Assembly (NCBI GenBank): GCA_942491115.1
Contig: CALNZV010000007.1
Coordinates: 194,605 to 258,604, forward strand
DNA length: 64,000 nt
Origin: an uncultured Desulfobacteraceae bacterium
GTDB taxonomy: Bacteria; Desulfobacterota; Desulfobacteria; Desulfobacterales; UBA5852
Direction: 5' to 3'
Below are positions 40,144 to 46,323 of this stretch, one piece after another. The translations under genes were made by a program, and so were the position numbers. Below the pieces are notes generated by a model. That model saw only the letters and a list, made by a program, of their open reading frames with translations, was not told where the DNA came from and searched no databases. How positions within the stretch are numbered: position 1 is the first letter of the stretch; each line of letters starts with the position of its first letter.

Positions 40144-40338
40144 TCAGCGCCACTTGATAAACCGGCCGATCAACACCCCCCCCAGAAGGCCGGCAGCGAG
40201 AGTGGCCAAGGTCGGCCAAAATCCCACCTCACGCCGCGGCGCCTTGGTGCTGCCCTCCATAGTCGCCGCCGCGCCTTTCCGGCTCTTCCGGGCCAAGGGG
40301 TCCTCAACGGCATCCTTCAACGCTCTTTTGGGTGGCAT
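40144..40338 (-). CDS. 64-aa basic protein with C-terminal transmembrane anchor
   Basis: MPPKRALKDAV..KSRKG.. then FWPTLATLAAGLLGGVLIGRFIKWR. AAGGA RBS inside the parA-like 3' end, with a 4-nt gap to the parA-like stop. No family recognised. Confidence 0.45.
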   Translation of the reverse strand: MPPKRALKDAVEDPLARKSRKGAAATMEGSTKAPRREVGFWPTLATLAAGLLGGVLIGRFIKWR

Positions 40339-40342
40339 TGGC

Positions 40343-40972
40343 TTATCCTTCCTCGTAGGTCATCAATTCATTGCAAAGGTTGATTGACTCTCTGGCGGCC
40401 GCACTTCTTGGAGAATACCGGTGAACCGGCAGGCCAGCGATCATGGCCTCCACATAGGCGATCCGCTGGGTGATTTCGGTTCGGCAGGCCTCTATCCCAA
40501 AGCCTTCCATGGCCTCTCTCGCCTCCTTGCCGACCCGGGTATTGGGGATTTTCCTGGAAATCAACAGCAGGGATCTGCGCTTAAGGCCTTTCTTCCGTGT
40601 TCCCGAAAGTCTTTGAAGCGTTTCACGGCTGGACCAGATATCAAGGGGGCTAGGACCGACGGGGATGAGGGTCAGGTCTCCGATGGCCAACACCCGCTGG
40701 GAGATGGCCTCGAGGGCCGGAGGCGAATCGATGACGATATGGCCATAGCCCTTGCCTGCGGATCGAATCTGCCGGCGGTCGGAAAGCCCCGGCAAATGAA
40801 CGACGTCAAAGAACTTCTGCGTTTCCAACGAGGCCCACTGCAGCACACTTCCTTGGGGGTCAGCGTCCACCAACAGGACTCTCCTTCCATGCTCGGCCAG
40901 GGCGCCGGCGAGATTGACCGCAATGGTGGTCTTTCCAACTCCGCCTTTTTGATTGACGATGCCGATGATCAT
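40343..40972 (-). CDS. ParA/MinD-superfamily ATPase (small plasmid-type ParA-like)
   Basis: Deviant Walker A IVNQKGGVGKTT, LLVDADPQGS, VIDSPP. 209 aa. GGAGG RBS. Confidence 0.9.
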   Translation of the reverse strand: MIIGIVNQKGGVGKTTIAVNLAGALAEHGRRVLLVDADPQGSVLQWASLETQKFFDVVHLPGLSDRRQIRSAGKGYGHIVIDSPPALEAISQRVLAIGDLTLIPVGPSPLDIWSSRETLQRLSGTRKKGLKRRSLLLISRKIPNTRVGKEAREAMEGFGIEACRTEITQRIAYVEAMIAGLPVHRYSPRSAAARESINLCNELMTYEEG

Positions 40973-41006
40973 GGGATCCTCCCGCCCTATGCGAGTGTCG
41001 ATGCTT

Positions 41007-42200
41007 CTACAGGAAAGTCTTCAGCCGTTCCAAACGGTCGGTCCGCTCCCAGGGAAGCTCCATGTCGTCCCTGCCGAAATGGCCGTAAGACGCCAGCCGC
41101 TGGTAAAACCGGCCGCTGTTTTGCGCCGGAAGGTTTCGGAGGTCGAAATCCCGAATTATGGCCGCGGGCCTGAAATCGAAGTGGGTTTGAATCAGTTTGG
41201 CAATATCTTTTTCCGGAATCACACCGGTACCGAAGGTTTGGACCTGAAGGGAAACGGGCTGGGTGATGCCCAGGGAATAGCTGAGCAGCACTTCGCACTC
41301 GGCGGCCAGACCGGAGGCCACGATGTTTTTCGCCGCATGCCGCGCGGCATAGGCCCCGACGCGATCGATCCGGATGGGGTCTTTTCCGCTGAGAGCCTTT
41401 CCGCTGTGACGGGCATACTCGCCATAGGTATCCACGGCGTTTTTCCGGCCCGTGAGTCCAGAGTGGTGGGGTGGGCCTCCCTGGTAGGGACCTTCGGGGT
41501 TGATGTTGATTCGTGTCTTATCATCGGGTTGGATGTCGAGCTTTGCAAACACCGGCTCGATGACCGAGGCCATCATATCGCTCCTCAGGGTCCGGATGCC
41601 CGGCTTCCGGATATCCCTTTGATCGGCGACCAGGGTGACGCTGTGAATTCTTGTGGGCCGGCGGTCCCGATATTCGACCCCCACCTGGACTCTCCCGTCC
41701 GGCATAAGATAAGGCAGTACCTTGAGGCGCCGAACCGCAGTGAGCTGGCGAACCAGCCGGTGGGCGACCCAGATGGACATTGGCAGGAAAGCCGGGGTCT
41801 GATCGCAGGCAAAGCCGAACACCGTCACCTGATTTTTGGCTGGGATCCGGCTTATCTCAGGATCGGAAAGGAAGCGCTCGTCAAACCGCATTTTAGGGTC
41901 GATGGGCAGTACCTTCGGCGCCGTAAGGATGCTGCAGATTTTCTCGTTGAACTCCTCCTGGTCGTAGCCGATCTGTTTGATGATCTTTCGGGCCACGTGG
42001 GCGAAATCCATTGTCGTCTCCGACCTGAATCTAGCCGCGATAAATACGATGGCACTCGAAACGGCGCATTCGGCCCGCACCCGGGCAAACGGATCGTGGG
42101 TCAGAAATCGATCGACAATGGCATCGCTGATCTGATCACAGAGTTTGTCCGGATGCCCCTCGGTCACGGATTCGGATGTGAAGATAAAATGTTTAATCAT
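41007..42200 (-). CDS. Divergent S-adenosylmethionine synthetase-like protein (MetK paralog)
   Basis: FTSESVTEGHPDKLCDQISDAIVD and SGKDPIRIDRVGAYAARHAAKNIVASGLA are MetK-like, but several canonical motifs differ (see findings). Its ATG overlaps the ATPase stop (ATGA). Confidence 0.8.
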   Translation of the reverse strand: MIKHFIFTSESVTEGHPDKLCDQISDAIVDRFLTHDPFARVRAECAVSSAIVFIAARFRSETTMDFAHVARKIIKQIGYDQEEFNEKICSILTAPKVLPIDPKMRFDERFLSDPEISRIPAKNQVTVFGFACDQTPAFLPMSIWVAHRLVRQLTAVRRLKVLPYLMPDGRVQVGVEYRDRRPTRIHSVTLVADQRDIRKPGIRTLRSDMMASVIEPVFAKLDIQPDDKTRININPEGPYQGGPPHHSGLTGRKNAVDTYGEYARHSGKALSGKDPIRIDRVGAYAARHAAKNIVASGLAAECEVLLSYSLGITQPVSLQVQTFGTGVIPEKDIAKLIQTHFDFRPAAIIRDFDLRNLPAQNSGRFYQRLASYGHFGRDDMELPWERTDRLERLKTFL

Positions 42201-45200: not shown

Positions 45201-45367
45201 CCCTCGACCTTGAACCGCACCCGACCAGGAACCGCGTCGTGAACAGTCGCCACGGTCGCGGTCGGATTCCCGTCCTTTCGCCCAGCAGTGGGTTGGGTTA
45301 GGGCGGGGCTTCGCCCCGATTCCGGGCGGCCATGGGCCGGCGTCGTGAAGTCGGAGGTTTTCTTCAT
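42197..45367 (-). CDS. P2-type cation-translocating P-type ATPase with N-terminal HMA-like domain
   Basis: [17 protein letters not shown] (TM4), [28 protein letters not shown], C-terminal cation-ATPase helices. N-terminal [12 protein letters not shown]...GTLLLRYD module without CxxC. Start at the ATG at 45367 or the TTG at 45391. Confidence 0.92.
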   Translation of the reverse strand: [1056 protein letters not shown]

Positions 45368-45538
45368 CAGATACCACCATAACAGAAGCAAGGGAGAAAG
45401 GAGTACTCAGCGGCCGCTGCGGCCGACCTCGGAAGCGGCAGAGCAGAATCCGGCAGTCGTCAGCCTCCGGACGCAAAACGAACCCATCGGCACGTCTGAC
45501 GTCAATCCAATGCATCATACCTTGTATGCCGCCGGCTA

Positions 45539-46042
45539 TCAGTCGGCGGACGGAAAGGGGTCGGTGTCGATTCGGTCCAGGATGGATTTGGTGAAAATGC
45601 CGAACGCATACCAGAAAGCTGTGTACCAGGGAGGCAGTCGCAGATTGCCCCGGAGGATCTGAATGATGCCCGTCGTCATGAGTAAAACGAAAACGGCGCC
45701 GAAGATATCCAGCTCATCGTTGGTAAAGCGGCGTACGTGACGGTTTAGGGCACCGATAGGGGCGACCACATAGGCAGCGGAGGGGGCCGCCTTTCTGCGA
45801 CTGACTACCGTCAGGTCGAAAGACCGGGTTCGCTCCCCCATGTCCTTCGCCCACTCGGGCGAGGCCAGATCACCCGTAATCAGTATACTTCCGGTGATGG
45901 GCCTTGCGGCGGCAATGGCGCCCTCGTCCCTAAATCGCTTCTCCAAGTCCTCGAAAAAGGCTCTGTCACCCTTTCGAGAGGAGACCCTGATGCGAAGCCG
46001 TTCACCGGTATGATGAACGACCTCGGCTTCCGGCAGATTCAC
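45539..46042 (-). CDS. HMA-like domain protein with C-terminal 2-TM region
   Basis: HHTGERLRIRVSS...ARPITGSILITGD (third copy of the PGR-IR-type module), then hydrophobic FGAVFVLLMTTGIIQIL and WYTAFWYAFGIF. GTG start overlaps the upstream stop (GTGA). Confidence 0.55.
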   Translation of the reverse strand: MNLPEAEVVHHTGERLRIRVSSRKGDRAFFEDLEKRFRDEGAIAAARPITGSILITGDLASPEWAKDMGERTRSFDLTVVSRRKAAPSAAYVVAPIGALNRHVRRFTNDELDIFGAVFVLLMTTGIIQILRGNLRLPPWYTAFWYAFGIFTKSILDRIDTDPFPSAD

Positions 46043-46323
46043 GCCTTGGCCCCTTTGGCCGACACTTTTTTAGGCTTGGCCGATGAACCGCCCTTGTCAG
46101 AAAGCTCCGATTTGGCTTCGGCGGCGAGGTCCTCAAGGGTCTCCATGGTTTCGGCAGTGGCTGATTTAGCCTGCTCGTAGGCGATCAGACCGCCTTTGAT
46201 AATCGACTTGGCCACCGGCTTTAGCACGCCGGCAATCACCGGAACCACAATCGGTGTCAACAGCACAATGCCTGCTCCCGTGGCCAGGGTTCCCAAATTC
46301 ACGCTAGCACCCAATAATTTCAT
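46039..46323 (-). CDS. Small membrane protein, DUF5132-like
   Basis: N-terminal hydrophobic GAGIVLLTPIVVPVIAGVL, then an amphipathic KSIIKGGLIAYEQAK...LEDLAAEAKSEL and a Lys-rich tail. RBS AAAGGAGG. The family call is from memory. Confidence 0.5.
   Translation of the reverse strand: MKLLGASVNLGTLATGAGIVLLTPIVVPVIAGVLKPVAKSIIKGGLIAYEQAKSATAETMETLEDLAAEAKSELSDKGGSSAKPKKVSAKGAKA

What the first reader, a model, noticed from the sequence alone, without database searches (positions are those of the whole stretch)
40144..46323. Six-gene translationally coupled operon: DUF5132-like / HMA-like 2TM / P2-type ATPase / MetK-like / ParA-like / tail-anchored basic peptide
All six ORFs are on the minus strand.
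- The junctions are tight: GTGA overlap at 46039-46042, ATGA overlap at 42197-42200, a 34-nt gap at 40973-41006 and a 4-nt gap at 40339-40342.
- The combination is not a pathway I recognise. A SERCA-like (PEGLP) pump carries a cysteine-less HMA-like N-terminal module. Two further stand-alone copies of that module exist; one is membrane-anchored in the operon and one is convergent at 39655-40026.
- The operon also holds a small amphipathic membrane protein, a SAM-synthetase paralog with altered catalytic motifs, and a ParA-type positioning ATPase with a tiny membrane-anchored partner.
- A positioning ATPase joined to an ion pump and membrane-shaping-type small proteins recalls gene sets for positioned membrane assemblies or organelles. 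That parallel is speculation.
Basis: partly seen in the sequence, partly recalled or inferred. Interest (0 to 1): 0.75.

Follow-up and report, generated by a model that had tools for sequence, protein, structure and literature searches.

The report
Calcium-type pump paired with remodelled MetK
A calcium-type ion pump with an unusual basic regulatory domain is always encoded directly upstream of a SAM-synthetase look-alike that has lost its methionine pocket, a conserved pairing across six bacterial phyla that I found described nowhere and that databases label as ordinary metK.

Summary
The six minus-strand ORFs, their junctions and their domain calls are real. It is not one tightly coupled six-gene operon: 171 nt separate gene 2 from the pump, and relatives carry a terminator in that gap.

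The core is a pair. A P2A (SPCA/LMCA1/SERCA-like) pump with an N-terminal CoBaHMA (Pfam HMA_2) domain is followed, with an ATGA overlap, by a MetK-derived protein. That protein keeps the triphosphate/Mg/K residues. Its methionine ligands and gating loop are replaced (E55R, Q98L, D118N, D238H, K269R).

In 86 loci, all 43 with this variant signature have the pump immediately upstream, and none of 43 canonical metK loci do. The reverse test from pump homologues gave 3 of 3. DUF5132 and stand-alone CoBaHMA membrane proteins are the only other conserved neighbours. The module occurs in six phyla.

The ParA gene and its 64-aa tail-anchored partner form an independent two-gene module. It lies inside the cluster only in some Desulfobacterales.

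The closest known set is DUF5132, CoBaHMA and a Ca transporter next to ccyA in Microcystis, which are candidate intracellular CaCO3 genes. No calcyanin is present here.

The function is inferred: a regulated Ca2+/Mn2+ pump assembly with a non-SAM MetK-derived partner. The organelle idea is untested.

The parts
46039..46323 (-). DUF5132 protein, 94 aa. It has an N-terminal hydrophobic segment (residues 8-42), then a charged amphipathic helix and a basic tail. Its stop codon overlaps the next gene's GTG start (GTGA).
   Evidence: Pfam PF17195, 45.8 bits. Hydropathy. Homologues in 30 of the related loci. Fused to the HMA_2 C-terminal hairpin in Nostocales.
45539..46042 (-). Stand-alone CoBaHMA (HMA_2) protein, 167 aa. 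It has an N-terminal b0-b1-a1-b2-b3-a2-b4 domain with a His plus R-x-R-x-R signature and no Cys. A C-terminal two-helix membrane hairpin follows.
   Evidence: Pfam HMA_2, 28.8 bits on the hairpin part. Custom CoBaHMA domain HMM, 64.5 bits on residues 3-76. AF2 secondary structure at pLDDT 65. Foldseek recovers KipI/YbgJ-type domains only weakly.
45368..45538 (.). 171-nt spacer between the HMA_2 gene and the pump. It breaks the proposed translational coupling and is a possible internal promoter or attenuation point.
   Evidence: Sequence. Promoter-like site at 45542-45514, at a number no higher than in shuffles. The equivalent spacers in L001, L027 and L087 carry a hairpin plus T-run terminator. 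No Rfam match.
42197..45367 (-). P2A-type cation pump, 1056 aa from ATG 45367. It carries an N-terminal CoBaHMA domain, a disordered linker, then the Cation_ATPase_N, E1-E2, HAD and Cation_ATPase_C domains. Motifs: PEGLP and DKTGTLT. Its stop codon overlaps the MetK-like start (ATGA).
   Evidence: Pfam and NCBIfam. Best PDB sequence matches are SPCA1 (457 bits), LMCA1 (437) and SERCA (364). Invariant E454, N862, E865, N890, S893, D894 and Q971 in 61 homologues. AF2 pLDDT 79.6.
45014..45256 (-). CoBaHMA domain of the pump, about residues 38-118. H43 is nearly invariant and G48, R49 and R51 are invariant. The model gives b0-b1-a1-b2-b3 and a long a2.
   Evidence: Pfam HMA_2, 31.1 bits. Custom HMM, 79.2 bits. 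Conservation. pLDDT 85-90.
41007..42200 (-). MetK-derived protein, 397 aa, with a full MAT fold. H14, D16, K17, E42, D163, R244, K245, K265 and D271 are kept. The methionine ligands and gating loop are replaced (E55R, Q98L, D118N, K165R, D238H, K269R; GAGDQG becomes AKNQ; GGPxGD becomes GGPPHH).
   Evidence: Roles of the methionine ligands: PMC6850014.
40343..40972 (-). Small ParA-type ATPase, 209 aa, with a deviant Walker A (NQKGGVGKTT). It shows no C-terminal amphipathic membrane-targeting helix on reading the sequence.
   Evidence: NF041546, 201 bits against a cut-off of 180. Homologues lie inside the cluster in L005, L006, L007, L027 and L087, and outside any cluster in L091-L093.
40144..40338 (-). 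64-aa partner of ParA. It has a basic N-terminal motif (MPPKRALKDAVEDPLARK), a linker, a C-terminal TM helix (43-61) and a basic tail.
   Evidence: The same architecture and motif follow every ParA homologue examined. Partner proteins act through a positively charged, disordered N-terminus: PMC10241942.
39646..40026 (+). Convergent stand-alone CoBaHMA protein, 126 aa (ATG at 39655). It is the best-scoring CoBaHMA copy in the window and has two Cys but no CxxC.
   Evidence: Pfam HMA_2, 41.4 bits. Custom HMM, 89.6 bits. A convergent small CoBaHMA gene lies within about 1 kb downstream of the MetK-like gene in most related loci.
46560..46720 (-). AT-rich stretch upstream of the DUF5132 gene with a TATAAT-type -10 box near 46590. 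It is the likely promoter region of the first transcription unit.
   Evidence: Read directly from the sequence. The consensus scan did not flag it. This is inference only.
37070..39460 (+). CBS-PAS-HisKA-HATPase-REC hybrid histidine kinase next to the cluster. It is a possible lineage-specific regulator and membership of the system is uncertain.
   Evidence: Pfam. Kinases with a homologous N-terminal CBS sensor flank the cluster in L006 and L090 only.

Best explanation
The region is one copy of a conserved, horizontally spread membrane module. Its obligatory core is a translationally coupled gene pair.

Gene 1 of the pair is a P2A-type cation pump. Its ion-site residues fit Ca2+, possibly Mn2+, and it carries an N-terminal CoBaHMA domain with a conserved basic patch.

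Gene 2 of the pair is a MetK-derived protein. It keeps the ATP-triphosphate/Mg2+/K+ machinery of methionine adenosyltransferase. Its methionine pocket and gating loop are replaced by a more basic, invariant His/Arg set. It is therefore very unlikely to make SAM.

One or two stand-alone CoBaHMA proteins (one anchored by a helical hairpin) and a DUF5132 membrane protein accompany the pair.

Proposed working, all inferred:
- The pump exports Ca2+ from the cytoplasm across a membrane.
- The fused and free CoBaHMA domains and DUF5132 set where and when the pump is active, by binding an anionic partner such as acidic lipid.
- The MetK-derived protein is made in step with the pump. It acts on or senses a nucleotide or (poly)phosphate-type ligand as the pump's dedicated accessory.
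- In this Desulfobacterales lineage, a separate ParA plus tail-anchored-peptide module has been inserted. It may distribute the membrane assembly along the nucleoid.

Shown: the anatomy, the residue pattern, the strict co-occurrence and the taxonomic spread.
Inferred: the ion, the direction of transport, any physical complex, and the enzyme's activity.
For: 1. All 43 loci whose MetK has the variant signature ([R/K/H]55, H238, R269) have a P2-type ATPase directly upstream on the same strand (0-124 nt away, apart from one frameshifted locus, and mostly overlapping). None of 43 canonical (E55/Q98/D118/K165/D238/K269) loci has an ATPase, CoBaHMA or DUF5132 gene nearby.
2. Reverse test: pump homologues at 50-53% identity, chosen without regard to MetK, have the variant MetK downstream in 3 of 3 cases, covering 4 loci.
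3. Pairwise identities of the pump and the MetK-like protein correlate at r = 0.96 over 33 loci.
4. The variant MetKs form a clade with 100/100 NJ bootstraps even with the signature columns removed.
5. The triphosphate and metal residues are kept. H238 and R269 are present in 120 of 120 database relatives. E55, Q98 and D118 are replaced in nearly all of them, and the gating-loop residues (G105, V106) and the GAGDQG motif are lost in the 36 full-length variant sequences. E55, Q98 and D238 correspond to Glu70, Gln113 and Asp258, which hold methionine in human MAT2A (PMC6850014).
6. Clustering all neighbours leaves only four families conserved across phyla.
7. Every complete linked pump has the N-terminal CoBaHMA domain, or, in L002-L004, a separate one. 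H43, G48, R49 and R51 are invariant or nearly so.
8. The Ca-site residues are invariant. The closest solved relatives are Ca2+/Mn2+ pumps.
9. A DUF5132-hairpin fusion in Nostocales ties the two small membrane proteins together.
10. In Microcystis, DUF5132 and CoBaHMA genes flank a Ca2+/H+ exchanger and ccyA and are co-expressed with them.
Against: - No experiment bears on any member.
Paralogy is inferred from the clade split and from the loss of the methionine ligands.
- K165 is T, Q or R in some members, and the glycine-rich loop is altered (G258S). Adenosyl transfer may therefore be lost altogether, and the protein could be a non-catalytic subunit.
- A paralogous CoBaHMA-P2 pump in L006 has no MetK-like partner, so the pump type does not strictly need one.
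- A spacer and terminators separate the small-protein genes from the pump, so co-expression is not assured.
- ParA homologues occur away from the module.
- Ion specificity is read from sequence only, and E908 of SERCA is Q here.
Confidence: 0.6

Rival explanations
1. The module builds or services an intracellular, membrane-associated calcium store or mineral inclusion, of the amorphous Ca-carbonate or Ca-(poly)phosphate type. The pump loads it. CoBaHMA and DUF5132 proteins shape or mark its membrane. The MetK-derived enzyme supplies or processes an anion such as PPi or PPPi. ParA and its peptide space the bodies along the nucleoid.
For: - DUF5132, CoBaHMA and a Ca transporter recur beside the iACC marker ccyA and are co-expressed with it in Microcystis.
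- Methylumidiphilus alinensis is reported as a ccyA carrier, and a Methylumidiphilus MAG carries this module (L018).
- The ParA partner is membrane-anchored, and ParA genes tend to lie next to their cargo genes.
- A PiT phosphate transporter and a PhoU-like gene lie just upstream in the window.
Against: - No calcyanin or GlyZip-like ORF was found in the window or in the 86 related loci scanned, though only by a crude regex.
- The module also occurs in Methylomonas, a genus of the Methylomonadaceae, a family in which the preprint detected no ccyA. I know of no report of such inclusions in most of the other taxa.
- The ParA pair is facultative and is also found elsewhere.
- The PiT and PhoU neighbours are not conserved.
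- Nothing shows that the pump faces an internal compartment.
Confidence: 0.2
2. The MetK-like protein is a working SAM synthetase isozyme. It supplies SAM locally or under particular ionic conditions, and the pump merely shares an operon with it.
For: - It scores above NCBI's metK equivalog cut-off (357.6 against 309.4 bits).
- It keeps the full three-domain fold and the catalytic H14, D16, K17, K245, K265 and D271.
Against: - The three side chains that hold methionine's amino-acid moiety (E55, Q98, D238) are replaced. D118 and K269 and the whole gating loop are replaced as well, and the change is invariant across the clade. Their roles are given.
- No methyltransferase or other SAM user is conserved in the neighbourhood.
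- The clade is cleanly separate from canonical MetKs.
Confidence: 0.08
3. The MetK-like protein is a non-catalytic pseudoenzyme. It serves only as a structural or regulatory subunit of the pump, for example as an ATP or K+ sensor.
For: - Strict translational coupling and co-evolution with the pump.
- K165 is variable (K, R, T, Q) and the glycine loop and adenine-side STQH motif are altered.
Against: - The acid-base and metal ligands (H14, D16, D271, K245, K265, R244) are nearly invariant.
- The new residues H238 and R269 are invariant, and position 55 is R, K or H throughout. This is the pattern expected of a retained but altered active site, not of decay.
Confidence: 0.15
4. The adjacency is chance or a lineage relic. 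An ordinary Ca2+ efflux pump lies beside housekeeping genes, and a plasmid-type ParA remnant sits next to them.
For: - NCBIfam calls the ParA a 'partition ATPase'.
- Transposases flank one relative, L005.
- Most other neighbours vary by lineage.
Against: - The 43/43 against 0/43 association holds across six phyla, with a 3-of-3 reverse test.
- No variant MetK was found on any of 72,556 plasmids.
- The ParA partner is a membrane peptide, not a DNA-binding protein.
- The source contig is 1.09 Mb.
Confidence: 0.02

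Closest known systems
CoBaHMA (Pfam HMA_2, PF19991) proteins and the ccyA neighbourhood of Microcystis aeruginosa PCC 7806 (candidate genes for intracellular amorphous CaCO3; Benzerara 2022, Bruley 2025 preprint)
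   Same: - The same three families occur together: DUF5132 proteins with one TM segment and a long helix, CoBaHMA domains joined to a C-terminal helical hairpin, and a Ca2+ transporter.
- The CoBaHMA signature is the same: an extra b0 strand with a His, basic residues in b1 and b2, and no CxxC.
   Different: - The transporter here is a P2A ATPase with the CoBaHMA domain fused to it, not a CAX exchanger.
- No calcyanin (GlyZip) gene is present.
- A MetK-derived gene is obligatorily attached. It is not mentioned in the passages of those papers that my term searches returned.
- The host is a sulfate-reducer-type Desulfobacterales, not a cyanobacterium.
P2A Ca2+ pumps: SPCA1/ATP2C1, Listeria LMCA1, SERCA1a
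   Same: - Full domain set with the DKTGT, PEGLP and TGDG(I/V)ND motifs.
- 10-TM C-terminal half.
- Site-II residues (E in M4, N and D in M6) and SERCA-like N and E in M5.
   Different: - About 170 extra N-terminal residues with a CoBaHMA domain and a disordered linker.
- SERCA E908 is Q here.
- Scores fall below every NCBIfam equivalog cut-off (576 against 798 for PMR1-type).
- A dedicated MetK-derived gene lies downstream.
Methionine adenosyltransferase (MetK/MAT)
   Same: - Three-domain fold.
- 42-45% identity to solved bacterial MATs.
- Conserved triphosphate, Mg2+ and K+ ligands.
   Different: - The methionine-binding triad, D118, K269, the gating loop and the GAGDQG and STQH motifs are replaced.
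- It forms a separate clade.
- It is always downstream of a pump.
ParA/MinD cargo-positioning systems with small partner proteins (McdAB for carboxysomes, ParC-ParP and others; Pulianmackal 2023)
   Same: - A small deviant-Walker-A ATPase is followed by a partner with a positively charged N-terminus.
- It is encoded next to a candidate cargo.
   Different: - The partner is a 58-123-aa tail-anchored membrane peptide, a type not mentioned in the passages of that paper that my term search returned.
- The pair also occurs in unrelated neighbourhoods, so its cargo need not be this module.
Ferrosome (fez) clusters: a P1B-6 ATPase FezB plus small membrane proteins (from my own knowledge of Grant 2022; not checked here)
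   Same: A P-type ATPase is encoded with small hydrophobic proteins in a horizontally spread cluster that is linked to an ion-storage body.
   Different: - The pump here is P2-type (PEGLP, no CPx motif).
- No Fez families were detected by Pfam or NCBIfam.
- A CPC-motif P1B pump with a CoBaHMA domain does lie beside the module in L001, but it is a different gene.

Membership tests
P2A-type cation ATPase (SPCA/LMCA1/SERCA group) | P-type catalytic core: DKTGT phosphorylation motif, the E1-E2 and HAD domains, and Cation_ATPase_N and Cation_ATPase_C | tested here: met
   Pfam gives all five domains with E-values from 1e-10 to 1e-49. DKTGTLT is present. D496, K497, T498, G499 and T500 are invariant.
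P2A-type cation ATPase (SPCA/LMCA1/SERCA group) | M4 PEGLP motif and Ca2+-site side chains (SERCA E309, N768, E771, N796, T799, D800, E908) | tested here: inconclusive
   E454, N862, E865, N890, S893 (in place of T), and D894 are invariant. The E908 position is an invariant Q971. The mapping to SERCA numbering uses my recalled SERCA1a segments plus the SPCA1 alignment. The pattern fits one or two Ca2+ sites but does not prove the ion.
P2A-type cation ATPase (SPCA/LMCA1/SERCA group) | Score above the curated equivalog cut-off of a characterised subfamily | tested here: not met
   PMR1-type 576 bits against 798, SERCA-type 501 against 703, PMCA-type 389 against 507. Only the generic P-type model passes.
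CoBaHMA / Pfam HMA_2 (PF19991) | Profile match at the gathering score | tested here: met
   Convergent gene 41.4 bits and pump N-terminus 31.1 bits, against a gathering score of 30. The 167-aa protein scores 28.8, just below, and only on the hairpin part. Its N-domain scores 64.5 bits against a family HMM built here.
CoBaHMA / Pfam HMA_2 (PF19991) | Ferredoxin-like HMA fold with an extra N-terminal strand b0 | tested here: met
   The AF2 model of the 167-aa protein gives E5-11, E15-19, H27-39, E43-49, E52-57, H62-74 and E78-80 (pLDDT about 75-82 in that part). The pump domain gives b0, b1, a1, b2, b3 and a long a2 at pLDDT 85-90, with no b4 modelled.
CoBaHMA / Pfam HMA_2 (PF19991) | A conserved His in b0, conserved basic residues in b1 and b2, and no CxxC metal site | tested here: met
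   The three copies read [25 protein letters not shown] and VHHTGERLRIRV. H43 is nearly invariant and G48, R49 and R51 are invariant in 61 pumps. No copy has a CxxC. The signature is as described.
DUF5132 (PF17195) | Profile match, plus an N-terminal TM segment followed by a long helix | tested here: met
   45.8 bits against 25. Hydrophobic segment at residues 8-42. The same architecture is described for the Microcystis members.
Methionine adenosyltransferase (MetK, TIGR01034 equivalog) | Three MAT domains and a score above the equivalog cut-off | tested here: met
   PF00438, PF02772 and PF02773 all match. TIGR01034 scores 357.6 bits against 309.4.
Methionine adenosyltransferase (MetK, TIGR01034 equivalog) | Methionine-binding residues (E55, Q98, D238; also D118 and K269) and the gating loop | tested here: not met
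   The residues here are R, L, H, N and R. H238 and R269 are invariant across the clade. E55, Q98 and D118 are replaced in nearly all members, by varying residues at 98 and 118. The gating loop and GAGDQG are not conserved. The roles of Glu70, Gln113 and Asp258 come from PMC6850014. It should therefore not be filed as a MetK equivalog.
Methionine adenosyltransferase (MetK, TIGR01034 equivalog) | Triphosphate, Mg2+ and K+ ligands (H14, D16, K17, E42, R244, K245, K265, D271) | tested here: met
   All are present in the window protein and in at least 119 of 120 relatives.
Methionine adenosyltransferase (MetK, TIGR01034 equivalog) | SAM synthesis activity; the sole or housekeeping metK of the genome | not testable with these tools
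   No whole-genome access was available to look for a second metK, and there is no biochemistry.
ParA/MinD positioning ATPase with partner protein | Deviant Walker A ATPase of the ParA family | tested here: met
   NF041546 scores 201 bits against 180, with CbiA and AAA_31 matches and the KGGVGKT motif.
ParA/MinD positioning ATPase with partner protein | An adjacent partner with a positively charged, disordered N-terminus | tested here: met
   The 64-aa product starts MPPKRALKDAVEDPLARKSRK. The motif is conserved in 8 homologous pairs. The criterion comes from PMC10241942.
ParA/MinD positioning ATPase with partner protein | A dedicated link to this cluster as its cargo | tested here: inconclusive
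   The pair lies inside the cluster in the window, L005, L006, L007, L027 and L087. However, 3 of 3 other homologues lie in unrelated neighbourhoods.
Calcyanin-linked iACC gene set | Presence of ccyA (a C-terminal triple GlyZip domain) | tested here: not met
   A regex for glycine-zipper runs finds no such ORF in the window apart from poly-G artefacts, nor in the loci. The test is crude and used no profile.
Known anti-phage defence systems (PADLOC) | Any component matching a defence model | tested here: not met
   Only weak P-loop matches of ParA, with E of 4e-6 or more over about 30 residues.

The most novel reading that the evidence does not exclude
The MetK-derived protein is a new enzyme that evolved from SAM synthetase. 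It uses the retained ATP-triphosphate chemistry on a different, anionic second substrate, or it makes or cleaves tri- or polyphosphate. It works in a physical complex with a CoBaHMA-gated Ca2+ pump. Together with DUF5132 and CoBaHMA membrane proteins it would define a previously unrecognised, widely transferred bacterial calcium-handling system. In some lineages that system would be a positioned intracellular store.
Probability: 0.3. Interest if true: 0.85.

Novelty: new variant of a known kind. Interest (0 to 1): 0.7.

Why it matters
1. Annotation. A whole clade of proteins passes NCBI's metK equivalog threshold and is named 'methionine adenosyltransferase' in public records. It lacks the methionine site and is therefore probably mis-annotated.

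2. Enzyme evolution. SAM synthetase is one of the most conserved enzymes known. A neofunctionalised paralogue with an intact triphosphate site and a redesigned second site would be a rare case and a source of new chemistry.

3. Bacterial calcium biology and P-type ATPase regulation. The module gives a concrete, testable four-part system present in culturable strains (Methylocystis, Methylosinus, Methylomonas, Desulforhabdus). It ties the poorly understood CoBaHMA and DUF5132 families to a pump. Those are the same families now discussed for intracellular carbonate biomineralisation.

4. Cell organisation. The ParA plus tail-anchored-peptide pair is a positioning-system partner type that the passages I read of the one survey paper consulted do not mention.

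Tried and rejected
- Looking up the window's own MetK-like protein and its 100%-identical database copy by exact sequence found no contig on record. The source genome could therefore not be read beyond the window.
- A tblastn of the MetK-like protein against 72,556 plasmids found only canonical metK at 45% identity or less. That gives no evidence for plasmid carriage and no shortcut to proving paralogy.
- Rfam found nothing but a distant tRNA, both at gathering scores over the whole window and at E up to 1 over 45300-47200. No riboswitch or leader RNA is detectable. The spacers of relatives share no sequence.
- The sigma-70 and terminator consensus scan of 39400-47200 gave counts no higher than shuffles and was not used as evidence.
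- PADLOC found no defence-system membership.
- A regex for calcyanin-like glycine zippers found nothing.
- Foldseek of the 167-aa model against the PDB gave no significant hit (best E 0.02). It gave only a weak echo of KipI/YbgJ domains.
- My first iterated 'HMA' profile drifted onto whole ATPases because it was built from full-length ORFs. I discarded it and rebuilt it from domain segments only.
- PiT, PhoU-like and TPM-phosphatase neighbours suggested a phosphate link, but none is conserved in related loci.
- Literature searches for DUF5132, CoBaHMA, MetK-like proteins, and a MAT paralogue together with a P-type ATPase found nothing on the pump-MetK pairing. The key CoBaHMA paper (Gaschignard 2024, Proteins) is not held.
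- A first Biopython tree run timed out. I replaced it with a numpy NJ.

Full report
**1. Observation**

The ORF listing reproduces all six minus-strand ORFs and the convergent ORF at the coordinates given.

Profile searches confirm each domain call:
- DUF5132: 45.8 bits.
- HMA_2: 41.4 bits in the convergent gene, 31.1 in the pump N-terminus, and 28.8 in the 167-aa protein. The last is just under the cut-off of 30 and lies on its C-terminal hairpin.
- A complete P2-type ATPase domain set.
- All three S-AdoMet-synthetase domains.
- ParA_partition: 201 bits against 180.
- The 64-aa product matches no family.

Two corrections follow. First, the public copy of the pump is 1056 aa and GGTGG lies 6 nt upstream of ATG 45367, so the pump starts at 45367 rather than at TTG 45391. 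Second, a 171-nt spacer therefore lies between the HMA_2 gene and the pump.

In relatives L001, L027 and L087 the equivalent spacer holds an obvious hairpin plus T-run terminator. The cluster is thus better read as three parts: [DUF5132-HMA_2], then [pump-MetK-like(-ParA-peptide)], with a convergent HMA_2 gene. It is not one six-gene translationally coupled operon.

The source is a Desulfobacterales MAG on a 1.09-Mb contig. The nearest named relatives are Desulfobacterales MAGs at 97% identity.

**2. What the HMA-like modules are**

A full-text search for DUF5132 and HMA_2 led to the work on intracellular amorphous calcium carbonate (iACC) in cyanobacteria. Pfam HMA_2 corresponds to the 'CoBaHMA' domain. 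That domain has the HMA fold with an extra strand b0 carrying a His, has conserved basic residues in b1 and b2, and lacks the CxxC site.

The three window copies carry this signature: [25 protein letters not shown] and VHHTGERLRIRV. In an alignment of 61 pump homologues, G48, R49 and R51 are invariant and H43 is nearly so.

AF2 models agree. The 167-aa protein folds as b0-b1-a1-b2-b3-a2-b4 plus two long C-terminal helices (pLDDT 65). The pump's N-terminal domain is modelled at pLDDT 85-90 as b0-b1-a1-b2-b3-a2, followed by a disordered linker. Foldseek gave no significant PDB hit. It did recover the KipI/YbgJ-type domains, the same domains the original authors used to place b0.

**3. The MetK-like gene is the key**

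Alignment with solved MATs shows the changes directly: GGE becomes AAR, GKQSPDI becomes PKVLPID, GAGDQG becomes PAKNQV, GGPxGD becomes GGPPHH, and PSKVD becomes PIRID. Alignment with the E. coli sequence, which I recalled from memory, gives the same picture.

In E. coli numbering:
- Replaced: E55R, Q98L, D118N, K165R, D238H, K269R.
- Kept: H14, D16, K17, E42, D163, R244, K245, K265, D271.

Glu70, Gln113 and Asp258 of human MAT2A correspond to E55, Q98 and D238. They are the residues that hold the amino-acid part of methionine and SAM (PMC6850014).

All 120 best database relatives have H238 and R269, and 112 have R55. A group comparison shows which canonical residues are systematically lost: the gating loop (Q98, S99, I102, G105, V106), GAGDQG, the STQH motif, G237-D238, and G258, G260 and F262. 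With the six signature columns removed, an NJ tree still splits variant from canonical sequences in 100 of 100 bootstraps. Among the best 150 cluster representatives of a 1.84-billion-protein library, about 23-30 carry H238.

This protein passes NCBI's metK equivalog cut-off and is named 'methionine adenosyltransferase' in public records. A defining feature of MetK, the methionine site, was tested and is not met.

**4. Gene-neighbourhood test**

Exact-protein look-ups of five relatives at 66-72% identity showed the same order: DUF5132, HMA_2, pump, MetK-like, and a convergent HMA_2. ParA and a small ORF were present in some.

A scan of one genome per GTDB species returned 80 loci. I called ORFs in these 80 loci and the six loci from the exact-protein look-ups, 86 in all. 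I then typed each MetK by six signature positions and searched the flanks with the window proteins and with domain HMMs.

The result is a clean dichotomy:
- All 43 variant loci have a P2 ATPase directly upstream on the same strand. It overlaps or lies within 124 nt, apart from one frameshifted locus. It is present even as a fragment where the contig ends.
- All 43 canonical loci (Pseudanabaena, Clostridia and others) have no ATPase, CoBaHMA or DUF5132 gene.

These counts are not phylogenetically independent. Still, the variant loci span Thermodesulfobacteriota, Cyanobacteriota (Nostocales), Alpha-, Beta- and Gammaproteobacteria (Methylocystis, Methylosinus, Rhodoplanes, Burkholderiales, Methylomonas, Methylumidiphilus), Binatota, Chloroflexota and Deinococcota.

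All three carry the variant MetK downstream. Pump and MetK-like identities correlate at r = 0.96.

Clustering every neighbouring ORF leaves only four families conserved across phyla: the pump, the MetK-like protein, small CoBaHMA proteins and DUF5132. Every complete linked pump has the fused CoBaHMA domain. The exception is L002-L004, which have a separate CoBaHMA gene instead.

In Nostocales, DUF5132 is fused to the C-terminal hairpin of the HMA_2 protein (E 1e-9 and 5e-8). That fusion links the two small proteins functionally.

A paralogous CoBaHMA-P2 pump in L006 lacks a MetK-like gene. A CPC-motif P1B pump with a CoBaHMA domain lies beside the module in L001. The fusion is therefore broader than the pairing.

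**5. The pump**

The closest solved sequences are SPCA1 (457 bits), Listeria LMCA1 (437) and SERCA (364). Invariant residues include the PEGLP Glu, N and E in M5, and N, S and D in M6. The SERCA E908 position is an invariant Gln. The SERCA numbering is from my own recall.

This fits a Ca2+ (or Mn2+) pump. It scores below every characterised-subfamily cut-off, and the ion is inferred only.

**6. ParA and the 64-aa peptide**

The peptide is conserved. It has an N-terminal M-x-K-K-R-a-L-x-D-a-x-x-D-P-L-A-K-K motif, a variable linker, a C-terminal TM helix and a basic tail. Partner proteins of ParA/MinD ATPases act through exactly such a positively charged N-terminus, and these ATPases tend to be encoded beside their cargo (PMC10241942).

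The pair lies inside the cluster in the window, L005, L006, L007, L027 and L087.

However, three ParA homologues on other long contigs lie in unrelated neighbourhoods. Each still has its own tail-anchored peptide. The pair is also absent from the module outside Desulfobacterota. It is therefore an autonomous two-gene module that is sometimes embedded here. It is suggestive, but it does not define the system.

**7. How it most likely works**

Shown:
- A strictly co-inherited pump and MetK-derived pair with two accessory membrane-protein families.
- A retained triphosphate/metal site and a redesigned, more basic second site in the MetK-derived protein.
- A conserved basic CoBaHMA surface on the pump.

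Inferred:
- The pump exports Ca2+.
- The CoBaHMA domains, fused and free, together with DUF5132, control its activity or location through an anionic partner. Other P-type ATPases are also regulated through their terminal domains.
- The MetK-derived protein is an accessory enzyme or sensor acting on a nucleotide or (poly)phosphate-type ligand rather than on methionine. I consider a still-active enzyme more likely than a pseudoenzyme, because the acid-base and metal ligands and the new His/Arg residues are invariant. The variable K165 and the altered glycine loop leave the pseudoenzyme reading open.

The stronger reading is a positioned intracellular calcium store related to iACC. For it:
- The Microcystis ccyA neighbourhood contains the same families.
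- Methylumidiphilus alinensis is reported as a ccyA carrier, and a Methylumidiphilus MAG carries this module (L018).
- The ParA partner is membrane-anchored.

Against it:
- No calcyanin is present.
- The module occurs in Methylomonas, a genus of the Methylomonadaceae, a family in which the preprint detected no ccyA.
- The ParA pair is facultative.

I put this reading at about 0.2.

**8. Comparison and novelty**

The parts belong to known families: P2A ATPase, CoBaHMA/HMA_2, DUF5132, the MAT fold and ParA. From memory, the abstract of the CoBaHMA paper mentions CoBaHMA domains in membrane transport proteins. That paper could not be read here, so whether the ATPase fusion is described is unchecked.

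I found nothing in the searchable literature on the obligatory pairing of such a pump with a methionine-site-less MetK paralogue, its spread over six phyla, or the DUF5132-hairpin fusion.

I rate it a new variant of a known kind, with interest 0.7. It corrects a systematic annotation. It also offers a well-defined experimental system in culturable strains. The function remains open.

Noticed in passing
window 9228-9650, 9742-9803, 10134-10319, 11283-11455 (+), and 10874-11281: There are homopolymer G runs up to about 290 nt, plus purine-only GA-rich low-complexity sequence. They begin about 290 nt downstream of a tRNA gene (8869-8942) and explain the GC skew of 0.26-0.61 at 8-12 kb. This looks like a poly-G sequencing or assembly artefact rather than biology.
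   Followed up: partly
window 14000-22000: GC content drops to 43-50%, against 55-65% elsewhere, and there are few ORFs of 120 aa or more. This may be a foreign island or more low-quality assembly near the tRNA.
   Followed up: no
window 47159-48172 and 48203-48850 (+): A PiT/PHO4 phosphate transporter and a PhoU_div (DUF47) gene are transcribed divergently from the cluster across an 835-nt intergenic region. A TPM-domain phosphatase lies at 50731-51720. None of these neighbours is conserved in related loci.
   Followed up: yes
window 53005-55395 (+): A single 796-aa ORF carries the NuoB-, NuoC- and NuoD-type domains (Oxidored_q6, Complex1_30kDa, Complex1_49kDa). It is an apparent triple fusion of complex-I subunits.
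   Followed up: no
L008 6201-6737 and L009 5996-6547 (Nostocales): A 178-183-aa protein fuses a DUF5132 module to the C-terminal membrane hairpin of the HMA_2 protein, without the CoBaHMA domain. It lies directly upstream of the pump.
   Followed up: yes
L091 8001-8922, L092 8001-8808, L093 8001-9004: ParA homologues at 51-54% identity lie in unrelated chromosomal contexts. Each is followed by a 58-123-aa protein with the same basic N-terminal motif and a C-terminal TM helix. ParA plus a tail-anchored peptide is therefore a stand-alone module family of unknown cargo in Desulfobacterota-type metagenome contigs.
   Followed up: partly
L001 3195-5435 (-): A 746-aa P1B-type (CPC motif) heavy-metal ATPase also carries an N-terminal CoBaHMA domain. 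It lies divergently next to the module. CoBaHMA is thus fused to more than one P-type ATPase class.
   Followed up: partly
window 37070-39460 (+); L006 3276-4817; L090 756-4481: Histidine kinases sharing a homologous N-terminal CBS-containing sensor region lie beside the cluster in three Desulfobacterales loci. CBS domains commonly bind adenosyl ligands. A link to the MetK-derived enzyme's product is conceivable but purely speculative.
   Followed up: partly
L001, L003, L005, L012, L087: A PIN_4/PhoH-type ATPase gene recurs within a few kb of the module in several Desulfobacterota loci. In L005 and L087 it lies next to a further 182-aa CoBaHMA gene. It is absent from the window.
   Followed up: no
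public records of the MetK-like clade (for example P0003, P0007, P0105): Members of the variant clade are named 'methionine adenosyltransferase' or 'S-adenosylmethionine synthetase' by NCBI and JGI, because they pass TIGR01034's cut-off (357.6 against 309.4 bits here). This is a likely systematic mis-annotation.
   Followed up: yes
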